Shown here in pieces: positions 3,258 to 64,000 of a DNA stretch of 64,000 nt (position 1 is its first letter; each line of letters begins with the position of its first letter). Source of the DNA: a virus. The position numbers were made by a program, and so were the translations under genes. The notes below the pieces were generated by a model. It was given only the letters and a program-made list of their open reading frames with translations. It was not told the origin of the DNA and did not search any database. The stretch spans positions 15,108 to 79,107 of IMG/VR virus record IMGVR_UViG_3300006736_000004, one strand, 5' to 3'.

Positions 3258-3929
3258 ATGAGCATCTATAGCCTCGAAAAGAAAGTCGCGTTCATTCACA
3301 TCCCGAAAAACGCCGGGACCAGCATCCGGGCCAATCTCAAAAAGGCGGTGCCGGACTTCCGCGACTTCGACGCCATTGATGAAGCGCACCGCAAGGTCCG
3401 CAACCAAGCCTTCGCCAACCACTTCCCATATTGGAAAATCCAAGAGCTTTTGCGCGAGACCAATTCCGACATTCCTTTCGAGGGTATGAAGGTCTTTATG
3501 GTGGTCCGCAATCCGTGGGCGCGGATGCTGTCCTTGTACCGCCACCGGCTCCGCAAGTTGGATTGGCATTACGAGGGCAAGGAACGCAACACAGAGCTTG
3601 ATAAGAAAGTTTGCCGAGCGGGCTTCGTGCCTTGGCTCACCCAAACCCCGCATGAGGGGGACAGCGTCTTGACCCGGACGGCTCAACTTGAATGGGGAAT
3701 CAACCTCAACGGCAAGATAGGCGTTGACAAGATTCTCATGATGGAAAAGCTGACGAAGCTCTATGCCGACACGCTTGGCCCTTGGGACATCACCGTGCCG
3801 CCGTTGGGGCGGTCCAACCAAGGCGATGGCGTGTCGAAGGATTACCGAAGGCACTACACCCAAGAGGCGAGGAACCATATCGAAAGGTGGTTTGGGCCAG
3901 ACATTGAGGCGTTCAATTATGAATTTTGA
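3258..3929 (+). CDS. Sulfotransferase (Sulfotransfer_2 family, PAPS-dependent)
   Basis: 5'-PSB motif FIHIPKNAGTSI, 3'-PB motif VRNPWARMLSLY, C-terminal DIEAFNYEF. Confidence 0.9.
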   Translation: MSIYSLEKKVAFIHIPKNAGTSIRANLKKAVPDFRDFDAIDEAHRKVRNQAFANHFPYWKIQELLRETNSDIPFEGMKVFMVVRNPWARMLSLYRHRLRKLDWHYEGKERNTELDKKVCRAGFVPWLTQTPHEGDSVLTRTAQLEWGINLNGKIGVDKILMMEKLTKLYADTLGPWDITVPPLGRSNQGDGVSKDYRRHYTQEARNHIERWFGPDIEAFNYEF

Positions 3930-10187: not shown

Positions 10188-10507
10188 GCGTTCTTTCCTT
10201 CTATCTGGAATATTCAGAATCGCAAATTGCGTGGATGGAAGAACAGGACGAGCCACCCGGACCGTTAGCCCGACTGCAAGAAATCTATCCCGATCTTGTC
10301 CCCGTTTGGGAGTGCTTTTGGTTCCTTCATCCAAGCCGACCAACCGGCATGGATGTCGGGGCAATCCCATTGTCGGAAATCGTGACTTATTGGAAAGAAG
10401 TTGGTTTGGTTTCGGACCAAGAGGACTTGAGGGAAAAAGTCCGCTTGGTCCGTGTCATGGATACGGAATTTTTGAACCATCATCGGAGCAAGCCTGATGC
10501 CGTTTGA
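10172..10507 (+). CDS. Frameshift extension of the tail chaperone (gpT-like)
   Basis: -1 frame relative to 9792; motif WECFWFLHPSRPTGMDVGAIPLSEI; overlaps the tape measure start. Confidence 0.7.
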   Translation, partial: GKKLISVLSFYLEYSESQIAWMEEQDEPPGPLARLQEIYPDLVPVWECFWFLHPSRPTGMDVGAIPLSEIVTYWKEVGLVSDQEDLREKVRLVRVMDTEFLNHHRSKPDAV

Positions 10508-17686: not shown

Positions 17687-18301
17687 ATGTGGCCCCCATA
17701 TAAGCATTTTATTACTCTTGAAAGGCCGCGCCTAGTCGAGCATCCGAAGATGTCTTTGATGGGAGAAGACTCTTTAATGATGGGTGTTGCTGGCGCGGGC
17801 TGCGACACTACTTCCAGTTCCTCCGGGGAGTGGAACGGAGCAACTGGTTCTTTTACGTTTAGTGGGGATGGCGTTGACTGCAACGCAGGTGATAAAGCCA
17901 TTAGAACAAACGACACATTTACTGATGATTTCACGATTACTTACACACAAACTACCGGAATATATATGGTTATTGGCGTTTATGACATTGCCGAAGATGG
18001 AACATTTGTCTCGACTGGACAAGGCCACGGTGGCATGGGCTCCATGGTTAGAAGTTGGTATTGGGAATACAACGCCAACGGTCAAACGGTCTATGGGGGA
18101 GAGAATCAAAGTGCGGAAACTATAGCTGATGGTTCGGTGATGAGGTTGGAGCGCAGATCAGGCGTGGTCAAGCTTTACGATGACGATGCTGAAATCTATG
18201 AATGGTCGCAAACGTTTACCCCCGCTGTCGAGGTGCGGATTGTTACCGGCGCACATGCCAGCCACCCAGATCTTGACGGTGTGAGCTGGAAACCTTGTTA
18301 A
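17687..18301 (+). CDS. Fibre-associated beta-sandwich (SPRY/ConA-like) protein; contains the junction repeat and may be a hybrid
   Basis: Follows the tail fibre gene; a paralogous copy starts at 63612. The fold call is inference from the beta-rich pattern. Confidence 0.55.
   Translation: MWPPYKHFITLERPRLVEHPKMSLMGEDSLMMGVAGAGCDTTSSSSGEWNGATGSFTFSGDGVDCNAGDKAIRTNDTFTDDFTITYTQTTGIYMVIGVYDIAEDGTFVSTGQGHGGMGSMVRSWYWEYNANGQTVYGGENQSAETIADGSVMRLERRSGVVKLYDDDAEIYEWSQTFTPAVEVRIVTGAHASHPDLDGVSWKPC
17801..18135 (+). repeat. Direct repeat copy 1 (335 bp; partner 63666..64000; offset 45,865 bp)
   Basis: Manual alignment: no indels, 24 mismatches in the first 255 bp (mostly synonymous), last 80 bp identical up to the window end. 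Confidence 0.97.
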
Positions 18302-43785: not shown

Positions 43786-43864
43786 AACAATTCCTCCTAT
43801 CAATGAAGGGTGCCTATCACCACTTCGACCTGCTGAATCGTGGGGACTCAGCAAGCCGAAAGGG

Positions 43865-43960
43865 TTAAGTTGTTGCGATAAAATACGCTAGGGGGATTCC
43901 CCAACAAACCGCCCAGAAATAAAAGGCCACTGCGATTGATTCTGCGATGAATCTAATCAT
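43865..43960 (-). CDS. 31-aa membrane peptide, copy 1
   Basis: MIRFIAESIAVAFYFWAVCWGIPLAYFIATT; RBS GGAGGA; conserved paralogue at 44947..45042. Confidence 0.8.
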   Translation of the reverse strand: MIRFIAESIAVAFYFWAVCWGIPLAYFIATT

Positions 43961-44246
43961 GTTTCCTCCAAATAGGCTGAACCGACACGCCATGCCGCAC
44001 AACCTTTTAGGCCGGTTACTGGATTATGTTGGTAATGAGCATTATCACGTTCCCTCGCGTCTGCATGGTTGCCATTCTTGCGAGTGTATGAATGCAAACG
44101 GGTTTGCTCACGTTTCTGGATGGCAGCTTCTGCGGTCTGGGCTAAGACCGTAACGAAATTGTGAGTTTTAAATTCATCATAGCTATGGTTGAGATCGTAG
44201 CATGCTGTTAAATATCTGTGCATAATTTTCTCCATGTGAAAGGGGT

Positions 44247-44869: not shown

Positions 44870-44946
44870 GTCATTTCTCCTTTGTTTGAAGGGCATTATC
44901 ACCACTTCGCATTGCACCAGCGGCGAACTGGTGCAAGCCGAAAGGG

Positions 44947-45042
44947 TTACGTTGTGGCGATAAAATAAGCCAACGGTATCCCCCAGCACACCATCCAAAA
45001 ATAGATGGCAACTGCTAGGGATTCAGCGATAAAGCGTATCAT
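44947..45042 (-). CDS. 31-aa membrane peptide, copy 2
   Basis: MIRFIAESLAVAIYFWMVCWGIPLAYFIATT; RBS AGGAG. Confidence 0.8.
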   Translation of the reverse strand: MIRFIAESLAVAIYFWMVCWGIPLAYFIATT

Positions 45043-45057
45043 GTTTTCTCCTATGTG

Positions 45058-45249: not shown

Positions 45250-45528
45250 GTTGATTTCTCCTATGCGTAAAGATCAACCTTTTTGACCGGCGCATATATT
45301 TCGGTAACGGTAAACTCCGCGCCGGTCTTTTCGATTGATAGGGTTGCAAGCCTTTTTTCTGGTAGACGATTCAACCAATCCCGCAAGGCTATAGCATCGG
45401 GAAAGACTCTCGTTGGTGTAATAAGCATATTCATTTCCTCCGCAGCCACATTAGGCATTGAAGGATTAACAACGGGTTAACCCGCTTCATGTTGCACCGG
45501 GTTCCAAGCGGTGCAAAGTGAAAGGGGT

Positions 45529-45750
45529 TTAGCGTAGAAGCCTTTGAGCGTGATGGGCTTTCACCAAGGCATGATCTAAGGCGGCTTTATCGGCGGCGTA
45601 AATAGCTTCGCCGCCCTCGCCATAGTGGTTGGCATCGTCCTTTGACCCATAGCGTTCAACGTAAGCAACAATGTTGCCGCCGTGACTGTCGAACCAATCA
45701 CGCTGGCTGTAGAAGTGGTTAAGCCAAAAGACGGCTTGTTTTTTAGTCAT
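45529..45750 (-). CDS. Early-region hypothetical protein
   Basis: ORF flanked by intergenic hairpins. Confidence 0.55.
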   Translation of the reverse strand: MTKKQAVFWLNHFYSQRDWFDSHGGNIVAYVERYGSKDDANHYGEGGEAIYAADKAALDHALVKAHHAQRLLR

Positions 45751-45995
45751 ATCAACTCGCTTTCAGAAGTGGGGAATCCACTTCAAAATGCACCGTTTAA
45801 ACGATGCATCCTGAAAGGGATTAGACGTTACGCATTCTCTCCAATGCCTTCGCAGCATCAGGGGTTGAGCGTAACGCAGCTAGCATTGCGTCAATGATTT
45901 CGGTAATCGTGCGTTTTTTCATAGTGTCTCGCTTTCAGAAACGGCTAATCCGTTTCCGCGATAGCCGCTCCTTAACGGCTATCTAGGAAAGGGGT

Positions 45996-46571
45996 TTAAG
46001 CGGCGAGTTTCTTAGGGTTAATCCAATCGGGTTTTTCCGTTGTTAGGATTGACCGCATAGGCATAACAACCGTGAATACATCATGGTCATTGTTGTAGCC
46101 CACCCAATGCGGTGAGCTTGCATCATTGCCGGTAATGAGAATGGCTGATTTACCAAGGATTTTGGCGGTTGTTGCGATTCTGGTAAGGATGGCCTCACCG
46201 AAGGCGGCATTTGAAGCGGTGCCGATTTCATCCGGCAATACTCTACGCCAATCGGGAAAAGTACCATCAATGGCTTTGCATGGTTCAATATGCAGAACGG
46301 CGTCATATTCACCATTGACTTGCAACTGGTCATTTTCGATCACTACGTTGGTTGCGGTCTTTTTCTTCATGGCGGTAATGGCTTTTTTAGATACCGGATA
46401 AATGCCTGATTCGTTGTCGGCAGTTGCGTCATATCCGGCGGTGAGCATATGCCCGTCCGTTGCAACTGCTACACTCCCCTCAAAATAAACACCGCAAAGG
46501 TAATAGCGGGTTTCTTCGATTCCTTGAGCAATCGCAACGGCGGCTAGTTTTTGTGCATCAAATGTTATCAC
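45996..46571 (-). CDS. Truncated DNA polymerase III beta-clamp-like protein
   Basis: ETRYYLCGVYFE, AVATDGHML, IDGTFPDWRRVLP, VVMPMR. GTG start at 46571 with RBS AGGAG. Confidence 0.75.
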   Translation of the reverse strand: MITFDAQKLAAVAIAQGIEETRYYLCGVYFEGSVAVATDGHMLTAGYDATADNESGIYPVSKKAITAMKKKTATNVVIENDQLQVNGEYDAVLHIEPCKAIDGTFPDWRRVLPDEIGTASNAAFGEAILTRIATTAKILGKSAILITGNDASSPHWVGYNNDHDVFTVVMPMRSILTTEKPDWINPKKLAA

Positions 46572-46649
46572 GGTTTTTCTCCTATGGTTGGTGGTTGGGG
46601 TAATTTCAAAGCCTTTTGAAGTGTCCACCTGTTAAAGTGGACAAGTTGA

Positions 46650-46880
46650 TTAGGTGAGATTGTCGAGAAATGATTGCGGCACCTCTTTTGCATTGGCACC
46701 GTCAAGCCATTGGTTGATATGTTTGGAAGTGGTAACAGAGTATTTTTGTTCCGTTCGCACGAATCCTGAACCGTCATTCATGCAAGCGGCCACGGGTGTT
46801 TTGTAGGAAAAGAAAACGGTTGTTCCGTTGGATAGCTCTATCTCGTTTTTGTTTGCGCCTAATGGGTTCAATTTTACCAT
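46650..46880 (-). CDS. Early-region protein (FSYKTPVAA...YSVTTSKHINQWL)
   Basis: RBS GGAGGA; enclosed by stem A. Confidence 0.7.
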   Translation of the reverse strand: MVKLNPLGANKNEIELSNGTTVFFSYKTPVAACMNDGSGFVRTEQKYSVTTSKHINQWLDGANAKEVPQSFLDNLT

Positions 46881-46970
46881 GGTTGATTCCTCCGAATATG
46901 GCGAACACATCAAAGGGCTTTGAATGGGACTCCTTAACAGTGCCAAGCCGTTAAGCTTGACACCTTGGTT

Positions 46971-47345
46971 TTAGTAGCCACGGGTTATAATGGTTTCTTT
47001 TTTCGCAATGGCAGAGGCGAAGGCGTTAACCATTTGAGCCTCGCCGCCTCGTTCATGTAATTTTACATAGCATACCCAATTACCAGCGAAAGCATTAGGC
47101 TTGCCGGGTTTCGCCTCGACTTGCTGATAATTAAGGCCAAGGCGGGTTTGTGTATTTTCGCCAGCAATCAGGTCTTTAAGGCGGGATAGAACGGAATCAA
47201 TAAACTCTTGCGAGCCTTCGATTCTGACACCATCCGCGCCATACGTTGAACCAGAATGTTTATATGGGATAACGTCCTGATTGACCGGCTGGTTCTCTTG
47301 TAGGCCCTGCCAATGGTTTAGTGCTTGTGATTTTGACATACGCAT
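46971..47345 (-). CDS. Early-region hypothetical protein
   Basis: RBS AAGGAG; enclosed by stem B. Confidence 0.65.
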   Translation of the reverse strand: MRMSKSQALNHWQGLQENQPVNQDVIPYKHSGSTYGADGVRIEGSQEFIDSVLSRLKDLIAGENTQTRLGLNYQQVEAKPGKPNAFAGNWVCYVKLHERGGEAQMVNAFASAIAKKETIITRGY

Positions 47346-47437
47346 AACATTTTACTCCTTTCACAGATTGACACTGTAAAAGAGTCCCTTGCTACTCATG
47401 CTCTTCAATGTGACAAGCCTAAGCCTGTCACTATGGT

Positions 47438-47620
47438 TTACAGCAATTCGCCCTTGCCGTTAAAATATGGTCCAGATACGTAGGCTTGTACTGCCCAGCC
47501 CCTACCATAAGATATTACACGCCAATTGGGGAATCCTTTGCCGTATTTTGCCCCATGATCTCGTGCGTCGTTGAAATCATGGAAGTAGGCAACGTCTTTA
47601 TATTCCTTGAATTTCGCCAT
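47438..47620 (-). CDS. Early-region hypothetical protein
   Basis: Enclosed by stem C. Confidence 0.6.
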   Translation of the reverse strand: MAKFKEYKDVAYFHDFNDARDHGAKYGKGFPNWRVISYGRGWAVQAYVSGPYFNGKGELL

Positions 47621-47719
47621 AATATTACCCTTTCAATGTTTTAAGGTTGCCACATTGAAAAGCATGAGTTTTCTCATATCCTTAGAAGTGACAAACCGTC
47701 TAAGGTTCGCCACTGTTAG

Positions 47720-48067
47720 TCAAGAAAACCGCTTTGAGATATTATCACGGATACCCTTGTTAATACCTTCGTCGAAGGCTTCCCATAGTTCTTCCGAATT
47801 TTCCGCTTCGTTGAAATCGTGGGCAGTAAACTCGAATGGCGTAAATTGCCTATCGTTTTCTTCCGAATCATACGCCATCAATTCCATTGCCTCAATTTGA
47901 TCTTCTTCCGATTCGATAGTGCCTACGCCAACCCAATCTATATGTTTGGGAAGCTCATAGCCAATTTCAGGTATATCAATCCAAGACGCTATATTGAATC
48001 CACGATTGAAACCCATTTCGGAAGCCTCGTTGACGTCGATGGTTACGAGATTATCTATTGCAAACAT
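47720..48067 (-). CDS. Highly acidic early protein (possible DNA mimic)
   Basis: Very Asp/Glu-rich; enclosed by stem D. Function is inference. Confidence 0.55.
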   Translation of the reverse strand: MFAIDNLVTIDVNEASEMGFNRGFNIASWIDIPEIGYELPKHIDWVGVGTIESEEDQIEAMELMAYDSEENDRQFTPFEFTAHDFNEAENSEELWEAFDEGINKGIRDNISKRFS

Positions 48068-48150
48068 AACATTTCCCCTTTGTTGCAGATTGTCACATCA
48101 AAGGATATGAGTTGAACACTACTCTTTAAACGTGGCGAATCAATTAGGGG

Positions 48151-48333
48151 TTAATCGAAATCCACAACATCGTCATAGGTATCGTAATTGGAATCGGTGA
48201 AGATTTCGGGGCGGTATCCTTTGAGCTTTTCCTTTTCACATTGTTTGCAAACATAGGCCACAAATATACCTCTTGCATCGTGTACGGCATTAGGCCATTC
48301 GCCAGAGCCGCAGGGGCATTCTCGTAAGGTCAT
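48151..48333 (-). CDS. Small zinc-binding early protein
   Basis: CPCGSG and CKQC motifs. Confidence 0.6.
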   Translation of the reverse strand: MTLRECPCGSGEWPNAVHDARGIFVAYVCKQCEKEKLKGYRPEIFTDSNYDTYDDVVDFD

Positions 48334-48539
48334 AGGCCAATCCTCATTACCTTGAATTTATTGTATGTATGGTTACGGTGGATTTGAGCGGTATCTTGTT
48401 TCCCCGTGCCACGGCAAGAATAACAGGTGCCGGATTTACGAGGTTTACCGTTAACAGTACCGCCAAACGAATAAACACCAGTGCCACGGCATTTTACACA
48501 TTCACCGGGCTTGCTGTTAGGTTGTGACATATCATACAT
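48330..48539 (-). CDS. DnaJ-type zinc-finger early protein
   Basis: CVKCRGTG and CYSCRGTG (two CxxCxGxG repeats). Confidence 0.7.
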   Translation of the reverse strand: MYDMSQPNSKPGECVKCRGTGVYSFGGTVNGKPRKSGTCYSCRGTGKQDTAQIHRNHTYNKFKVMRIGL

Positions 48540-49479
48540 GGTAAAGCCTTTCGGATTCGCCACATTAAAAGAGTAGTGCCGGAAACCGCACATAACTAAC
48601 ACGGCGCGATTCCCTGCCCTTGGCCGCCGTAGTGGCCGCCCGTAAATGCAGTTCCTAATTCAATAGATCAAAACCGCCACATAAAACGCAGTGGCGTCTC
48701 CCAGCAAAGGCGCGAAAATGAGCCAAGGGGTAGCACTCTAATTCGGGGGGAAATGATATTCCTCATCGAACGTACATGATGGCAGCTAAGGCCAAAATTC
48801 CGCGACGAATCGCGAACAAGATGATTATGCACAGATAATCAACAGAATGTATATAGCTAATATCAAGATATACCCTTTATTTTCCCGCATTCCCAATGTC
48901 ACGGCTTATATGGCGTGTAGCTCTCCAGAAACCCGAAATGCTCACCAGTAGCCAACTAGCCCTATAAATGATCTACCATATCAAATCGCCAGACTCACGC
49001 TCTGGTAAGCCATTTTGAGCCGTACAGGCCTGTCAATAAAATAATGCAAGCCATGACAAATAAATATCAGATAACCATTGACTCACCCCTATGGAATGTT
49101 GCAGGAGCATATTAGAGAATCCTAATGGAAACATTTGATAGCAAAGAGCAAGCAATAGCAGAATACGCTCGTATAGTAGAAGCAATGGCTGCTGGTATCG
49201 TCCCCACATGGTACTTGGAAGAAAGGTATATCGAATGTGTCCTATACCTTGGAATCCATTCTCCACAAACTCCAGTAGTCAGACACTAGAAATGCGCGGC
49301 ACCCCACAATGCAGCAGCATAGCAGAAGCCTTCAATCGCATAAGGGAATCCAATAGGGTAGAAGTGTTCGATGGGGTAGCTGCTAAGTACATAACACAAG
49401 TTTATGAGGGGGCCGAAAGGCTACATAGTGAAATAGGCAAGGTAACAGTGAATCCTAATGGATATAGTAAGGAATAGGT

Positions 49480-49944
49480 ATGTCTCTCAATGCTAAGAGA
49501 AGAGCATTTGTTAGAGAATATGGAGTGGATAAGAACGCTACTCAATCGGCCATAAGAGCAGGTTATTCTAAACAGACAGCGTATGCTCAAGGTAGTCGGT
49601 TGTTAAAGGATGTAGAGGTAATAGAGGCTTTACAGCGTAACGAGGCCGAGCATATCAAGCGTTGTGCCTATGATCGGGATCGTATTAATAATCAATATCA
49701 GTCGGCTTTTGACCTAGCCCAAATGAAAGAGAATTGCGGAGTGATGGTGCAAGCCACCACTGGCCTTGCCAAAGTGAACGGCCATATGAACGAGGGGGCC
49801 ACTGTTAACGTCAATGTCGGTTTGGGTGGATTGCTAAAAGACCTTGAGGATAGACGCATAAAAGACATAACCCCAACACCCCTTAAATTGGACGCTCAGG
49901 ACGTATTGTTACCCATTAAGGATGCAACCGTCCAGAAAACATGA
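49480..49944 (+). CDS. terS: Terminase small subunit
   Basis: KRRAFVREYGVDKNATQSAIRAGYSKQTAYAQGSRLLK (Terminase_2 pattern). Confidence 0.9.
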   Translation: MSLNAKRRAFVREYGVDKNATQSAIRAGYSKQTAYAQGSRLLKDVEVIEALQRNEAEHIKRCAYDRDRINNQYQSAFDLAQMKENCGVMVQATTGLAKVNGHMNEGATVNVNVGLGGLLKDLEDRRIKDITPTPLKLDAQDVLLPIKDATVQKT

Positions 49945-52920: not shown

Positions 52921-55068
52921 ATGCTTATAGATGATGAACTGCTAATCAAATATGCGCGGTCCCCTAATATCGCATCAGATTTAGACAAAGAGGTTCTGTC
53001 TAAGATAGGGCAGAAGATACATCAAGGCTACGAGATTGATGTAGACTCACGCTCTGAGTGGACACAGAAGATGGGCAAGGCCATGAAGATGGCTTTACAG
53101 ACTTCTGAGCCTAAGAGTACACCGTGGCCCAACGCATCTAACATCAAGTACCCTCTAATGACCACTGCTGCGATCCAGTTCGCTGCTAGGGCTTACGCTG
53201 CTATGGTGCCTGGTTCTGACGTTGTTAAGGGTAAAATAGTTGGTTCTGACCGTCAGCCTTCTCAGCAAGGTGCGATGGACACCAAGAGAGACAGGGCGCA
53301 TCGTATCGGTAAGCACATGAGTTGGCAGCTTATCGAAGAGATGGAAGAGTGGGAAGAGGAGACCGATAGGCTACTTCATATCGTGCCTGTCACCGGGCTT
53401 GCCTACAGAAAGACGTATTATGACCCCATGAAGGGGAGAAATGTCTCTGTTTTGGTTATGCCCGACAAACTCGTAGTCAATAACAAGGCTAAGAGCTTGG
53501 AAACTACCCCTCGTATTACGGAGGAATTTTCCCTCTATCCCTATGAAATCACTGAGAGAATGCGATCCAACGTCTTCCTTGAGATGGACTTAGGCCCGTC
53601 CAACGATGAGGATGGTTTTGATGAAGATGCTCCTCATGTCTTTCTTGAGCAGCACTGCTGGTATGATTTGGATGAAGATGACTATCCTGAGCCTTATATT
53701 GTCACGATTCACCGTGATTTAATGAAAGTTGTGCGTATTGTCGCTCGATTTGAGGAAGAAGGCATTGAAATCAACAAAAAAGGCCAGATTGCCAAAATTG
53801 AGCCTGTTCATTATTACACAAAATATCCATTTATTCCATCTCCTGATGGCTCTTGGCATGATATTGGTTTCGGCATCCTGTTGGCACCTATTAACGACTC
53901 AGTAAACACTTCTCTCAACCAGATGATGGACGCTGGCACTCTTCAGAACACTGGGGGTGGCTTTATCGGGTCTGGATTGCGAGTTAAGGGTGGAGTGATA
54001 AAAAAGAGGGTTGGAGAGTGGAAAGTTCTTGATTCAACTGGTGAAGGAATTGCAAAGAACATCGTACCACTAAACCACCCCGGCCCTTCTGTTGTACTCT
54101 TTCAACTGCTAGGTATGTTAGTTGACGCTGGCAGAGAGATTGCGTCGATTAAAGACGTTCTGATGGGCGAAACCAAGTCAAATGTACCGGCGACAACTAC
54201 GCTTGCGATGATCGAACAGGGGATGAAGACCTTCACGGCGATTTACAAGAGACTTCACCGTGCCATGAAGAAGGAGCTAAAGAAACTCTACCGCCTGAAC
54301 TCCATATATCTTCCTCAAGAAGCCTACTTCAATGTTTTGGACGAGGAGAGGGCGATAAGCAAGGAAGACTACTCTATGGATGACATGGATGTGGTTCCTG
54401 TATCTGATCCTACTGTAGTGACTGATATGCAGAAGATGGCACGGGCGCAGTTCCTGATGGACTTCTTGGGCGACCCAATGTTTAACGGTATGGAGATTAG
54501 ACGCCGCCTTCTTGACGCTGCTTCGATTGAAGACCCCGGCAATTTGATCGTAGAAGAGCAGCCTCCTGACCCACAGGCTATGTTGGAGAACGCTAAATTT
54601 GAGCTAGAGAAGGCCAAACTTCAATTGGAGGGCCAAGAGACACAAGCCAAAATCGAAAAGATGGCGGCTGAGGTGCAGAAGATTCAACTGGAGACTGAGA
54701 AATTGGTTTCTGAGTTGCAGAACCCTGAAGAGGGTAACAGCGATTTAATCAGTGAAATCAATCGTTTACAGGCAGAGGGTGAGCGACTGAAGCAGCTTTC
54801 AGAGCAGAAAGACGTAGATGGACTGAAGTTGGAGAATGAGCGGCAACTTACTCACGCTAAACTTCAGCTAGAAGAGAAGATTGCGGCCCGTGAGGCTGAA
54901 CGCAAGGATAGGGAGCTTGAGATCAGGGCAGCGTTTGAGAGGGATAAGCTCAAGCAAGAGGCTGAGATTGCAGACGCCAAACTGAACCAGAAAACCCTTT
55001 CTGAGACTGCTCAACGCAAATCTCAAGAGGCTATTTCCAAGGTCCAGGCAAAGAGGGCGTCAAAATAG
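52921..55068 (+). CDS. Portal protein with a C-terminal coiled-coil barrel (P22-like)
   Basis: Follows terL; PWPNASNIKYP, KTYYDP, LEQHCWYDLD, NQMMDAGTL, PATTTLAMIEQG. Confidence 0.9.
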   Translation: MLIDDELLIKYARSPNIASDLDKEVLSKIGQKIHQGYEIDVDSRSEWTQKMGKAMKMALQTSEPKSTPWPNASNIKYPLMTTAAIQFAARAYAAMVPGSDVVKGKIVGSDRQPSQQGAMDTKRDRAHRIGKHMSWQLIEEMEEWEEETDRLLHIVPVTGLAYRKTYYDPMKGRNVSVLVMPDKLVVNNKAKSLETTPRITEEFSLYPYEITERMRSNVFLEMDLGPSNDEDGFDEDAPHVFLEQHCWYDLDEDDYPEPYIVTIHRDLMKVVRIVARFEEEGIEINKKGQIAKIEPVHYYTKYPFIPSPDGSWHDIGFGILLAPINDSVNTSLNQMMDAGTLQNTGGGFIGSGLRVKGGVIKKRVGEWKVLDSTGEGIAKNIVPLNHPGPSVVLFQLLGMLVDAGREIASIKDVLMGETKSNVPATTTLAMIEQGMKTFTAIYKRLHRAMKKELKKLYRLNSIYLPQEAYFNVLDEERAISKEDYSMDDMDVVPVSDPTVVTDMQKMARAQFLMDFLGDPMFNGMEIRRRLLDAASIEDPGNLIVEEQPPDPQAMLENAKFELEKAKLQLEGQETQAKIEKMAAEVQKIQLETEKLVSELQNPEEGNSDLISEINRLQAEGERLKQLSEQKDVDGLKLENERQLTHAKLQLEEKIAAREAERKDRELEIRAAFERDKLKQEAEIADAKLNQKTLSETAQRKSQEAISKVQAKRASK

Positions 55069-63611: not shown

Positions 63612-64000
63612 ATGCTAAGATCAACAGCGTTATCAGGATTTGGCGCGGGAGTGGCAGAAGTATCTTGCGACACTACGTCTAGTTCTTCCGGGGAGTGGAA
63701 CGGAGCAACTGGTTCTTTTACGTTTAGCGGTGATGGCGTTGACTGCAACGCAGGTGATAAAGCTATCAGAACAAACGACACATTTACTGGTGATTTCACA
63801 CTTACTTATACTCAAACCACCGGACAATATCTGATTATTGGCGTTTATGACATTGCCGAAGATGGAACATTTGTCTCGACTGGACAAGGACACGGGGGCA
63901 TGGGCTCCATGACTAAATCTTGGTATTGGGAATACAACGCCAACGGTCAAACGGTCTATGGGGGAGAGAATCAAAGTGCGGAAACTATAGCTGATGGTTC
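63612..64000 (+). CDS. Fibre-associated beta-sandwich protein (truncated by the window end); paralogue of 17687..18301
   Basis: MLRSTALSGFGAGVAEVS-CDTTSSSSGEW..., open to the window end. Confidence 0.75.
   Translation, partial: MLRSTALSGFGAGVAEVSCDTTSSSSGEWNGATGSFTFSGDGVDCNAGDKAIRTNDTFTGDFTLTYTQTTGQYLIIGVYDIAEDGTFVSTGQGHGGMGSMTKSWYWEYNANGQTVYGGENQSAETIADG
63666..64000 (+). repeat. Direct repeat copy 2 (partner 17801..18135)
   Basis: Same alignment as copy 1. Confidence 0.97.

What the first reader, a model, noticed from the sequence alone, without database searches (positions are those of the whole stretch)
46606..48578. Chain of five long-range stems, each looping out one early cistron
Seen: five pairs of 21-27-nt imperfect inverted repeats (46606-26/46903-23, 46926-48/47366-88, 47394-420/47644-69, 47673-97/48087-111, 48117-41/48554-78). 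Each pair encloses an RBS and gene (the last encloses two genes), and consecutive pairs are only 2-5 nt apart. Each pair has its own sequence around a shared C/T-rich...GTG core, so partners are specific. Most mismatches become G-U or U-U on the coding (minus) strand, which points to RNA-level pairing. Established: rRNA precursors are looped out this way by RNase III stems, and T7 early mRNA is cut by RNase III at local hairpins. Inference: this polycistron is processed into individually end-paired mRNAs. The core also resembles boxA, so antitermination is an alternative. I do not know of this layout being described for phage mRNA.
Basis: partly seen in the sequence, partly recalled or inferred. 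Interest (0 to 1): 0.8.

Follow-up and report, generated by a model that had tools for sequence, protein, structure and literature searches.

The report
Phage genes each enclosed by RNA helices
In one operon of an uncultured marine phage, five successive gene units each sit between two complementary stretches that have co-evolved to stay paired in the messenger RNA, much as ribosomal RNAs are looped out for cutting, and these units are also swapped in and out between related phages.

Summary
Five 22-29-nt inverted-repeat pairs are the five longest in the region. Each brackets one RBS plus gene (two genes in the last), and neighbouring pairs lie 2-5 nt apart. Only five such pairs exist in the 79-kb record; shuffles give 0-1.

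- **Partner specificity:** cognate duplexes are -32 to -41 kcal/mol, non-cognate ones -7 to -27.
- **Coding-strand RNA pairing:** mismatches give 9 G.U against 1 A.C. The sense duplex is the stronger one in 5 of 5 pairs. The MFE fold of the 2.1-kb sense RNA contains all five helices.
- **Covariation:** relative L015 (90% aa) keeps helix 2 through four double compensatory changes and none disruptive.
- **Exchangeable units:** unit 5 is 99.3% identical to L015 but unit 2 only about 80%. L015 lacks units 4+3. Another population carries a sixth unit between two arms.
- **New here:** downstream junctions of the operon carry five covarying local hairpins. The long-range stems have the same architecture with the gene inside.

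Best reading: selected RNA helices that act as RNase III-type processing or stabilising elements. Cleavage is untested, and no RNA run holds this sequence. I found no publication describing this layout. This scan has already noted similar layouts on other DNA (27 findings).

The parts
48579..48700 (-). Transcribed leader upstream of the first helix. It is identical in relative L015 as far as that contig reaches. The promoter was not located.
   Evidence: 99.3% identity block with L015 starting at about 48668; only weak sigma-70-like matches, not above shuffles.
48554..48578 (-). Unit 5, 5' arm (CACUACUCUUUUAAUGUGGCGAAUC)
   Evidence: pair probabilities 0.66-1.0
48151..48539 (-). Unit 5 cargo: two overlapping small Cys-rich ORFs. 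48330-48539 is 69 aa with a weak DnaJ CXXCXGXG-type zinc-finger match. 48151-48333 is 60 aa.
48117..48141 (-). Unit 5, 3' arm. This is the only unit without a competing local hairpin.
48090..48111 (-). Unit 4, 5' arm
47720..48067 (-). Unit 4 cargo: 115-aa acidic ORF with no family match
47673..47713 (-). Unit 4 local 3' hairpin (47688-47713), overlapping the 3' arm (47673-47694)
   Evidence: (the distal 7 bp of the long-range helix have probability only 0.24, because they compete with the hairpin)
47641..47669 (-). Unit 3, 5' arm
47438..47620 (-). Unit 3 cargo: 60-aa ORF with no family match
47394..47431 (-). Unit 3 local 3' hairpin (47410-47431), overlapping the 3' arm (47394-47422)
47360..47388 (-). 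Unit 2, 5' arm
   Evidence: compensatory changes in L015
46971..47345 (-). Unit 2 cargo: 124-aa ORF of a widespread phage family with no Pfam, PHROG or PDB match
46926..46963 (-). Unit 2 local 3' hairpin (46940-46963), overlapping the 3' arm (46926-46954)
46900..46924 (-). Unit 1, 5' arm
46650..46880 (-). Unit 1 cargo: 76-aa ORF, phrog_5643 (unknown function)
46605..46643 (-). Unit 1 local 3' hairpin (46622-46643), overlapping the 3' arm (46605-46629). This is the end of the chain.
45996..46571 (-). The next gene of the operon: a 191-aa sliding-clamp-like protein (phrog_3007/phrog_947; weak DNA_pol3_beta_2 match). It is not enclosed by a helix.
45947..45996 (-). Local intercistronic hairpin wH1, starting at the stop codon of the clamp-like gene
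   Evidence: 41.9 bits
45775..45822 (-). Local intercistronic hairpin wH2
   Evidence: 57.5 bits
45479..45529 (-). Local intercistronic hairpin wH3
   Evidence: 56.5 bits
44901..44947 (-). Local intercistronic hairpin wH4
   Evidence: 58.9 bits
43819..43865 (-). Local intercistronic hairpin wH5
   Evidence: 52.9 bits

Best explanation
The five inverted-repeat pairs are long-range RNA helices of 22-29 bp in the sense transcript of one minus-strand operon (about 48.7 kb down to 43.8 kb). The operon lies in a roughly 46-kb marine phage genome.

Every cistron junction of this operon that I examined carries an RNA helix of about two turns. The promoter-distal junctions have a local hairpin. This has a conserved lower stem (CCC-UUUC / GAAG-N-GG, with a fixed U.G and a 1x1 mismatch) and a variable upper stem. 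In the five promoter-proximal units the 5' strand of the helix lies upstream of the RBS, and the 3' strand lies downstream of the stop codon. The helix therefore closes the whole cistron into a loop.

Inferred mechanism: the helices are substrates for a double-strand-specific endonuclease, most likely host RNase III. Cutting them would release each unit as its own message with its two ends paired. Alternatively, after cleavage, the local hairpin that overlaps the 3' arm could refold as a 3'-terminal protective stem.

Because each unit carries both strands of its own helix, it is a self-contained expression module. Related phages gain, lose and exchange such modules.

Shown: the repeats, their specificity, the sense-strand signature, covariation, cassette polymorphism, and the local hairpin family. 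Inferred: cleavage, the identity of the enzyme, and the fate of the products.
For: 1. The repeats are real and non-random.
2. Cognate specificity rests on perfectly complementary, unit-specific outer segments of 7-9 nt.
3. Single-strand, sense-specific signature:
   - 9 G.U against 1 A.C in the five helices.
   - 3 G.U and 0 A.C in a sixth helix from another population.
   - 4 G.U and 0 other mismatches in an unrelated 17-bp helix around a 58%-identical homologue, L033.
   - The sense duplex is more stable than the antisense duplex in 6 of 6 helices.
   - The local hairpins are also more stable in sense.
4. The MFE of the whole 2,081-nt sense RNA contains all five helices, with pair probabilities near 1 over 11-23 bp.
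5. In helix 2, window against L015: four pairs changed on both sides and stayed Watson-Crick, one G.U became G-C, none was disrupted, and the central U.U was kept. The enclosed gene is about 85% identical at the nucleotide level.
6. [quoted passage not shown] Here a conserved core sits in the middle of each 5' arm.
7. The same operon has five local hairpins of one family, each starting at a stop codon. Together with copies in phages L012/L016/L017, they give a consensus of 15 pairs. Nine of these pairs show double compensatory changes, and one U.G is nearly invariant. A covariance model finds them nowhere else in the window.
8. When the cargo is removed, the long-range units fold into the same base / 1x1 mismatch / 5-bp / internal loop / upper-stem layout.
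Against: - No RNA data exist for this phage, so neither transcription across the region nor any cleavage has been seen.
- Covariation for the long-range helices rests on one close relative (helix 2) and one fragmentary population variant. Helix 5 is identical in L015 and so gives no information.
- A G.T bias would also arise if one DNA strand folded as single-stranded DNA.
- RNase III needs little sequence specificity, so the conserved core is not explained by RNase III alone.
- Sequence homology between the long-range arms and the local hairpin family is not significant by a profile search. The link between them is architectural only.
- Most homologues of the 124-aa cargo gene in other phages have no flanking helix, so the helix is not tied to that gene's function.
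Confidence: 0.55

Rival explanations
1. DNA-level cassette system. Each unit is a mobile gene cassette, and the arms are the two halves of a palindromic recombination site. A circular cassette would carry its two cognate arms side by side as a hairpin-forming site. Recombination at the centre of such sites would leave each cassette flanked by its own inverted halves, abutting those of its neighbours.
For: - Cassette content differs between near-identical populations, and the breakpoints lie at the arms. X4 has a sixth unit with its own complementary arms exactly between the arms of units 5 and 4. X4 also has an extra 265 nt after unit 1.
- L015 lacks units 4 and 3.
- Identity is mosaic: unit 5 is 99.3% and unit 2 about 80% identical to L015.
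- The geometry (unit-specific inverted halves, conserved core, 2-5 nt linkers) is what centre-of-palindrome exchange would produce (inference).
Against: - The linkers differ at every junction (TTCAA, AAAA, AGCAA, ATT). The X4 insertion leaves TT and T in place of TTCAA. There is therefore no conserved crossover spacer and no target-site duplication.
- No integrase or recombinase was found in or next to the operon. The only transposase-like ORF is about 14 kb away.
- The L015 deletion ends inside an arm, not between arms.
- All units share one orientation, and the pairing signature is specific to the transcribed strand.
- The contigs laid showed no strand-switch joints, though contigs cannot exclude rare forms.
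Confidence: 0.12
2. By-product of module shuffling. The intergenic hairpins are a repeated family. Recombination between their conserved strands inserts genes, as proposed for PeSL motifs in T4-like phages. This leaves one hairpin strand on the far side of the new gene, and the long-range complementarity itself has no function.
For: - In L012 the homologue of the 124-aa gene is preceded by a lone copy of the hairpin's 5' strand and followed by a complete hairpin. This looks like an intermediate form.
- The spliced units fold like the local hairpins.
- PeSL precedent: PMC2839356, PMC4122927.
Against: - Four double compensatory changes and none disruptive in helix 2.
- The outer segments are unit-specific and perfectly complementary.
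- The distal 5' arm and the 5' half of the local hairpin have diverged from each other, yet both still pair with the same 3' strand through G.U.
- All three points indicate selection on the long-range pairing. Origin by shuffling and present function are not exclusive.
Confidence: 0.12
3. Transcription-level signal. The C/U-rich core of each 5' arm is a boxA-like site that loads the host Nus factors at each unit. This would give antitermination and tether the 5' arm to RNA polymerase until the 3' arm emerges, as proposed for rRNA operons.
For: - The cores read CUCUUUUAA, UCCUUUGAU, GCUUUUCAA, CUCUUUUAC and CCCUUUGAU. These resemble boxA-type CU-rich elements.
- rRNA operons combine boxA with leader-trailer helices (PMC10250234, PMC8632103).
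- Earlier scan notes report boxA next to similar helices in other phages. These are leads only.
Against: - Only one of the five arms lies within 2 mismatches of GYTCTTTAANA, and such matches are near background in the window (127 found against 99 expected, spread throughout).
- The host, and therefore its boxA, is unknown.
- The motif lies inside the helix rather than in a single-stranded leader.
- The complementary 3' strands match the consensus about as well on the other strand.
Confidence: 0.1
4. Regulatory switch. The long-range helix and the overlapping local 3' hairpin are alternative folds. They would set the decay or translation of each unit, for example by exposing or hiding the purine-rich, SD-like 3' strand, without any endonucleolytic processing.
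For: - In four of five units two different 5' partners compete for the same 3' strand, and both pairings are maintained.
- The 3' strands are purine-rich (UAAGGAG, UAAGGA, AAAAGG), as the sequence shows.
Against: - The RBS of each enclosed gene lies outside the helix.
- Unit 5 has no competing hairpin.
- No ligand- or protein-binding element was recognised, and Rfam gives nothing.
Confidence: 0.08

Closest known systems
Leader-trailer (processing) helices flanking 16S and 23S rRNA in bacterial rrn operons, cut by RNase III (PMC10250234)
   Same: - Complementary sequences on either side of a functional RNA pair over hundreds to thousands of nucleotides.
- The helix is about 25-40 bp (here 22-29 bp).
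- Pairing is kept by covariation while the sequence drifts.
[quoted passage not shown]
- Successive helices occur in one transcript.
   Different: - What is enclosed here is a protein-coding cistron with its own RBS.
- There are five (six in one population) helices back to back, 2-5 nt apart.
- Four of them compete with a local 3' hairpin.
- The units are gained and lost between related phages.
- Cleavage has not been shown.
RNase III sites between the early genes of phage T7 (own knowledge; general substrate rules in PMC3867540)
   Same: A phage operon in which each cistron junction carries a helix of about two turns with internal mismatches. The local hairpins wH1-wH5 have exactly this local layout.
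   Different: T7 sites are local hairpins. Here five helices are formed by strands 218-412 nt apart and enclose the cistron. Neither the enzyme nor the cleavage has been shown here.
PeSL (promoter-early stem-loop) mobile regulatory cassettes of T4-like phages (PMC2839356, PMC4122927)
   Same: A repeated intergenic stem-loop motif bounds small ORFs of unknown function in a plastic region. Close relatives differ by insertion, deletion or replacement of units, with end points at the motifs.
   Different: PeSLs are direct repeats that combine an early promoter with a terminator stem-loop. Here the repeats are inverted and unit-specific, they pair across the gene, and they carry no promoter-like match above background.
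Integron gene cassettes with attC sites (own knowledge)
   Same: An array of promoterless single-gene cassettes in one orientation. The repeats are imperfect and inverted, with conserved cores and cassette-specific remainders. Structure rather than sequence is conserved, and folding is strand-specific.
   Different: An attC site is a local palindrome at the 3' end of its cassette and needs an adjacent integrase. Here the two cognate halves lie on opposite sides of the gene, no integrase is present, and there is no conserved crossover point.

Membership tests
rRNA-type leader-trailer processing helix | Complementary strands flank the enclosed RNA and form a helix of more than about 17-20 bp | tested here: met
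   22-29 bp, -32 to -41 kcal/mol, present in the whole-transcript MFE
rRNA-type leader-trailer processing helix | Pairing is maintained by covariation | tested here: met
   helix 2 against L015 shows 4 double compensatory changes, 1 G.U to G-C, and 0 disruptive. Only one informative relative was available, so this rests on few events.
rRNA-type leader-trailer processing helix | Cleavage of the helix by RNase III releases the enclosed RNA | not testable with these tools
   No RNA run holds the sequence. This needs end-mapping in rnc+ and rnc- hosts, or cleavage in vitro.
rRNA-type leader-trailer processing helix | An upstream boxA antitermination signal | tested here: inconclusive
   the consensus GYTCTTTAANA is not specifically matched by the arms, and the host consensus is unknown.
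rRNA-type leader-trailer processing helix | Encloses a stable non-coding RNA (rRNA) | tested here: not met
   the loops hold ORFs with RBSs; no Rfam family.
T7-type intercistronic RNase III hairpin | A local hairpin of about two helical turns with an internal loop, between cistrons of a phage operon | tested here: met
   Met for wH1-wH5. Not met for the five long-range helices, whose strands lie 218-412 nt apart.
T7-type intercistronic RNase III hairpin | Site-specific RNase III cleavage | not testable with these tools
   No RNA data
Integron cassette / attC | A tyrosine-recombinase integrase gene and attI next to the array | tested here: not met
   no integrase among the ORFs of the operon or among the large ORFs tested. 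Not every ORF of the record was scanned.
Integron cassette / attC | The attC site is a local imperfect palindrome at the 3' end of each cassette, with conserved R''/R' cores | tested here: not met
   cognate halves lie on opposite sides of the gene. The two halves that meet at a junction are non-cognate (-12 to -27 kcal/mol).
PeSL regulatory cassette | The repeat contains an early sigma-70 promoter followed by a stem-loop, as direct repeats | tested here: not met
   promoter-like sites are not above shuffles and none lies in the arms. The repeats are inverted.
TIR transposon / MITE | Terminal inverted repeats of one family at the element ends, plus a target-site duplication | tested here: not met
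   the outermost 7-9 nt differ between units, and the linkers show no duplication.

The most novel reading that the evidence does not exclude
The array is a phage-borne gene-cassette platform. In this reading the split helix is both the RNA processing signal and the determinant of cassette mobility. Cassettes would enter and leave at hairpin sites, through an as yet unseen circular or single-stranded intermediate in which the two cognate arms form one hairpin. This would be an integron-like system without a recognisable integrase. The observed population differences (a sixth unit inserted exactly between arms, loss of units 4+3, and 99% against 80% mosaic identity) would be its footprint.
Probability: 0.12. 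Interest if true: 0.85.

Novelty: new variant of a known kind. Interest (0 to 1): 0.7.

Why it matters
If the helices are cut or otherwise used as predicted, a phage applies the rRNA-precursor layout to protein-coding genes. Each cistron would be looped out by its own leader-trailer helix. This would define a portable expression module: RBS, gene and both strands of its processing helix.

That would explain how small accessory genes can move between phage genomes and still be expressed and stabilised independently of their neighbours.

It would also give a sequence-only rule for finding unit boundaries in phage early regions, and a compact design for insulating cistrons in synthetic operons.

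This locus adds three things:
- Population evidence that the helix-bounded unit is the unit of exchange.
- A side-by-side comparison, in one operon, of local and gene-enclosing versions of the same kind of helix.
- A conserved competition between the long-range helix and a local 3' hairpin.

Tried and rejected
**Searches that found nothing or were unavailable**
- GenBank phage records: no DNA match to 46000-49500. One remote protein match only.
- IMG/VR: homologues of the 76-aa, 124-aa, clamp-like and TerL proteins come from other phage lineages and show no chain. A junction pattern (GGCTTGNCAC...AAGR...CYTT....GTG) had 0 matches.
- GTDB genomes: no relative of the 124-aa family, so there is no host lead.
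The contigs of the 99%- and 90%-identical proteins P0001/P0002 therefore could not be fetched, except L015 from the metagenome scan.
- No RNA holder was listed among 20 sequencing runs.
- Rfam: nothing.
- The search of earlier findings by place (relatives): nothing.
- PDB profile search of the 124-aa family: nothing.

**Tests that did not discriminate or did not support a link**
- Contigs of four DNA runs showed no strand-switch joints. Contigs cannot show that rare forms are absent.
- The sigma-70 promoter and intrinsic-terminator scan was not above shuffles. The local 3' hairpins of this phage lack U-tracts, so I dropped the terminator reading for them.
- The boxA consensus search was not discriminating.
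- duplexfold of 70-nt flanks around 72 homologues is dominated by GC-rich spurious pairings. Only L015 and L033/L032 stand out by the ungapped test.
- L019/L022/L023 flanks pair through a repeated palindromic GTTTAAAC+RBS motif. That is a different thing.
- A profile HMM of the local hairpins does not hit the spliced long-range units, so I do not claim sequence homology between the two.

**Readings considered and rejected**
- A shufflon or DNA inversion system: the units hold complete co-oriented genes, and each unit has private arms.
- A repeated palindromic junction element as a trivial cause of the repeats: rejected by the cognate specificity.
Full report
**1. What is there**

The window is part of a 79,107-bp IMG/VR virus record. 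On the minus strand, from about 48.7 kb leftwards, lies an operon that diverges from a terminase operon on the plus strand (terS at 49480).

Each pair encloses a Shine-Dalgarno sequence and one ORF; the first pair in the direction of transcription encloses two overlapping ORFs. Consecutive pairs are 2-5 nt apart.

A scan of the whole record for such repeats finds five, four of them in this chain, while Markov shuffles give 0-1. In 169 loci (1.17 Mb) of other phages and metagenome contigs, fetched through homologues of genes in this region, no abutting chain exists.

**2. Specificity and strand**

- In mRNA sense each 5' arm reads [7-9 unit-specific nt]-CYYUUU-N-A-N-GUG-NCAA, and each 3' arm is its complement.
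- Cognate duplex energies are -31.9 to -40.8 kcal/mol. The 20 non-cognate combinations are -7.5 to -27.0.
- All five duplexes are more stable as minus-sense RNA than as plus-sense RNA.
- Of the 18 non-Watson-Crick positions, 9 are G.U in the sense RNA and 1 is A.C, which would be G.U in the antisense. Five are U.U.
- The MFE fold of the whole 2,081-nt sense RNA contains all five helices. Pair probabilities are close to 1 for the outer 11-23 bp. The plus-strand fold loses helix 2 altogether.

**3. Relatives**

No named phage is related, and near relatives seem to be withheld from IMG/VR searches. A metagenome scan with a profile of the 124-aa cargo protein of unit 2 returned 80 loci.

One of them, L015 (1,240 bp, 90% aa identity), is a true relative of this region:
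- Its leader and unit 5 are 99.3% identical to the window.
- Units 4 and 3 are absent, with a 12-14-nt stump of the unit-4 5' arm left behind.
- Unit 2 follows at only about 80% identity over the unit (about 85% within the gene).
- Within the 21-bp helix 2, four pairs differ on both sides and remain Watson-Crick, one G.U becomes G-C, nothing is disrupted, and the central U.U and one G.U are retained.
- The unit that follows in L015 is a different one.

A more distant homologue (L033/L032, 58% aa) is enclosed by an unrelated 17-bp helix. All four of its non-Watson-Crick pairs are sense-strand G.U. Most other homologues have no such helix.

**4. Populations**

Twenty marine metagenome runs from 16 studies hold parts of the stretch. 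None is an RNA run.

I laid Logan contigs of four of these runs on the region. One 3,079-nt contig of X4 is colinear from 46400 to 48111. It has 265 other letters in place of 46577-46595, and it leaves the window exactly at the outer end of the unit-4 arm. It continues with a new arm of the same type.

A second X4 contig has the partner arm directly before the unit-5 arm. The two new arms form 21 consecutive pairs including 3 G.U, at -38.8 kcal/mol in sense against -26.8 in antisense.

So a sixth unit sits between units 5 and 4 in that population. The linkers left behind (TT and T, where the window has TTCAA) show no duplication and no conserved spacer.

**5. The rest of the operon**

Downstream of the chain, each of five junctions carries a local hairpin that starts at the stop codon of the preceding gene: 45947-45996, 45775-45822, 45479-45529, 44901-44947 and 43819-43865.

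Together with copies in the L012/L016/L017 phages, these hairpins align to a consensus of 15 pairs:
- nine pairs show double compensatory changes;
- the strands CCC-UUUC and GAAG-N-GG are invariant;
- one U.G is almost invariant, and there is a conserved 1x1 mismatch.

A covariance model built from them finds only these five in the 64-kb window.

Four of the five long-range units also have a local hairpin just after the stop codon. Its 3' half is the inner part of the 3' arm, so the inner part of the 5' arm (GUGNCAA) and the hairpin's own 5' half compete for one strand. The two competitors have diverged from each other, but both still pair, partly through G.U.

If the cargo and the inner 5' arm are removed in silico, units 1-4 fold into the same layout as the local hairpins: base helix, 1x1 mismatch, 5-bp helix, internal loop, upper stem.

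A sequence profile of the local hairpins does not detect these spliced units. The likeness is therefore one of architecture, not demonstrable homology.

In L012 the homologue of the unit-2 gene has a lone copy of the hairpin's 5' strand upstream and a complete hairpin downstream. That looks like an intermediate state.

**6. Interpretation**

The strand-specific wobble pattern, the compensatory changes and the whole-transcript fold point to helices selected in the sense RNA. I put this at about 0.8.

Their length (22-29 bp, with a central mismatch) is that of RNase III substrates (PMC3867540). [quoted passage not shown] Every examined junction of the operon has such a helix, local or gene-enclosing, as the early operon of T7 has local RNase III hairpins (own knowledge).

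I therefore take RNase III-type processing into single-unit messages as the most likely function. The products would have paired ends, or a refolded 3' hairpin. I put this at about 0.45-0.55 and stress that no cleavage has been seen.

The conserved core is not explained by RNase III alone. A boxA reading is not supported by the one consensus I could test.

**7. Rivals**

- **DNA-level cassette site.** This is suggested by the population differences. It is weakened by the lack of a conserved crossover spacer, a target duplication or a recombinase, and by the transcribed-strand signature.
- **Pure by-product of shuffling between repeated hairpins.** This is contradicted by the compensated substitutions, although shuffling may well be how the layout arose.
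- **A regulatory switch between the two folds.** This remains possible.

**8. Novelty**

Seven full-text searches found no description of gene-enclosing helices in phage mRNAs. The nearest literature is the rRNA helices and the PeSL cassettes of T4-like phages (PMC2839356, PMC4122927).

Earlier notes of this scan report similar layouts on other DNA: 27 findings hold the search words. I treat these as leads, not evidence.

I classify this as a new variant of a known kind (RNase III-type processing helices). This locus contributes the cassette polymorphism, the coexistence of local and split helices in one operon, and the competing 3' hairpins.

**9. Limits**

There are no RNA data. The record itself is probably a join of two phages (see the items noticed in passing), which does not affect the operon.

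Noticed in passing
window 17801-18100 and 63666-63965: A 300-nt direct repeat (92% identical) with spacing 45,865 bp. GC drops from about 55% to 45-50% near 14-18 kb. There are also two sets of virion genes (tape measure at 10497; portal at 52921). The 79-kb record is probably a join of a long-tailed phage segment with a circularly closed phage genome of about 45.9 kb that holds the operon.
   Followed up: partly
window 31873-32691 (minus): A 272-aa ORF that matches phrog_4285 'transposase' (E 2e-49), with a weak match to the IS110-family C-terminal domain. It lies about 14 kb from the cassette chain, and I found no link to it.
   Followed up: partly
window 43851-43969 and 44933-45051: A 119-nt direct repeat (79% identical) that covers hairpins wH5 and wH4 plus the start of the following gene. 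A hairpin-plus-gene-start module has been duplicated within the operon.
   Followed up: no
L012 587-641, 1064-1120, 1832-1882, 2451-2500; L016 796-847, 2560-2613, 4683-4739: In this group of phage contigs (L012's contig is 44.7 kb) the same hairpin family has GC-rich upper stems followed by CUUUUG, so it looks like an intrinsic terminator. The copies in the window lack the U-run. The family may serve different ends in the two lineages.
   Followed up: partly
L033 612-628 / 1009-1025 (and L032): A freshwater homologue (58% aa) of the 124-aa gene is enclosed by an unrelated 17-bp helix with 13 Watson-Crick and 4 sense-strand G.U pairs.
   Followed up: partly
L019 2963-2985 / 3730-3752; also L022, L023: In this lineage genes are preceded by a conserved palindromic GTTTAAAC followed by the RBS AAGGAAGG. 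This yields apparent gene-flanking inverted repeats that include the RBS, which is a different arrangement.
   Followed up: no
window 46971-47345 (minus): The 124-aa cargo protein of unit 2 belongs to a family found in 80 or more metagenome contigs from marine, freshwater and soil samples. It has 25 invariant residues and no Pfam, PHROG or PDB match. Its function is unknown.
   Followed up: partly
window 46577-46595: In population X4, 265 other letters replace these 19 nt, between the last 3' arm and the clamp-like gene. A further small unit probably sits there.
   Followed up: no
window 3268-3288 / 3467-3487: This is the only other inverted repeat of at least 20 nt with 100-900 nt spacing in the record. 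It lies in the high-GC part, inside overlapping long ORFs.
   Followed up: no
window 47720-48067 and 48151-48539 (minus): The cargo of unit 4 is a strongly acidic 115-aa protein. Unit 5 holds two small Cys-rich (zinc-finger-like) proteins. Such proteins are typical of early host-takeover or anti-defence genes, but nothing was tested.
   Followed up: no
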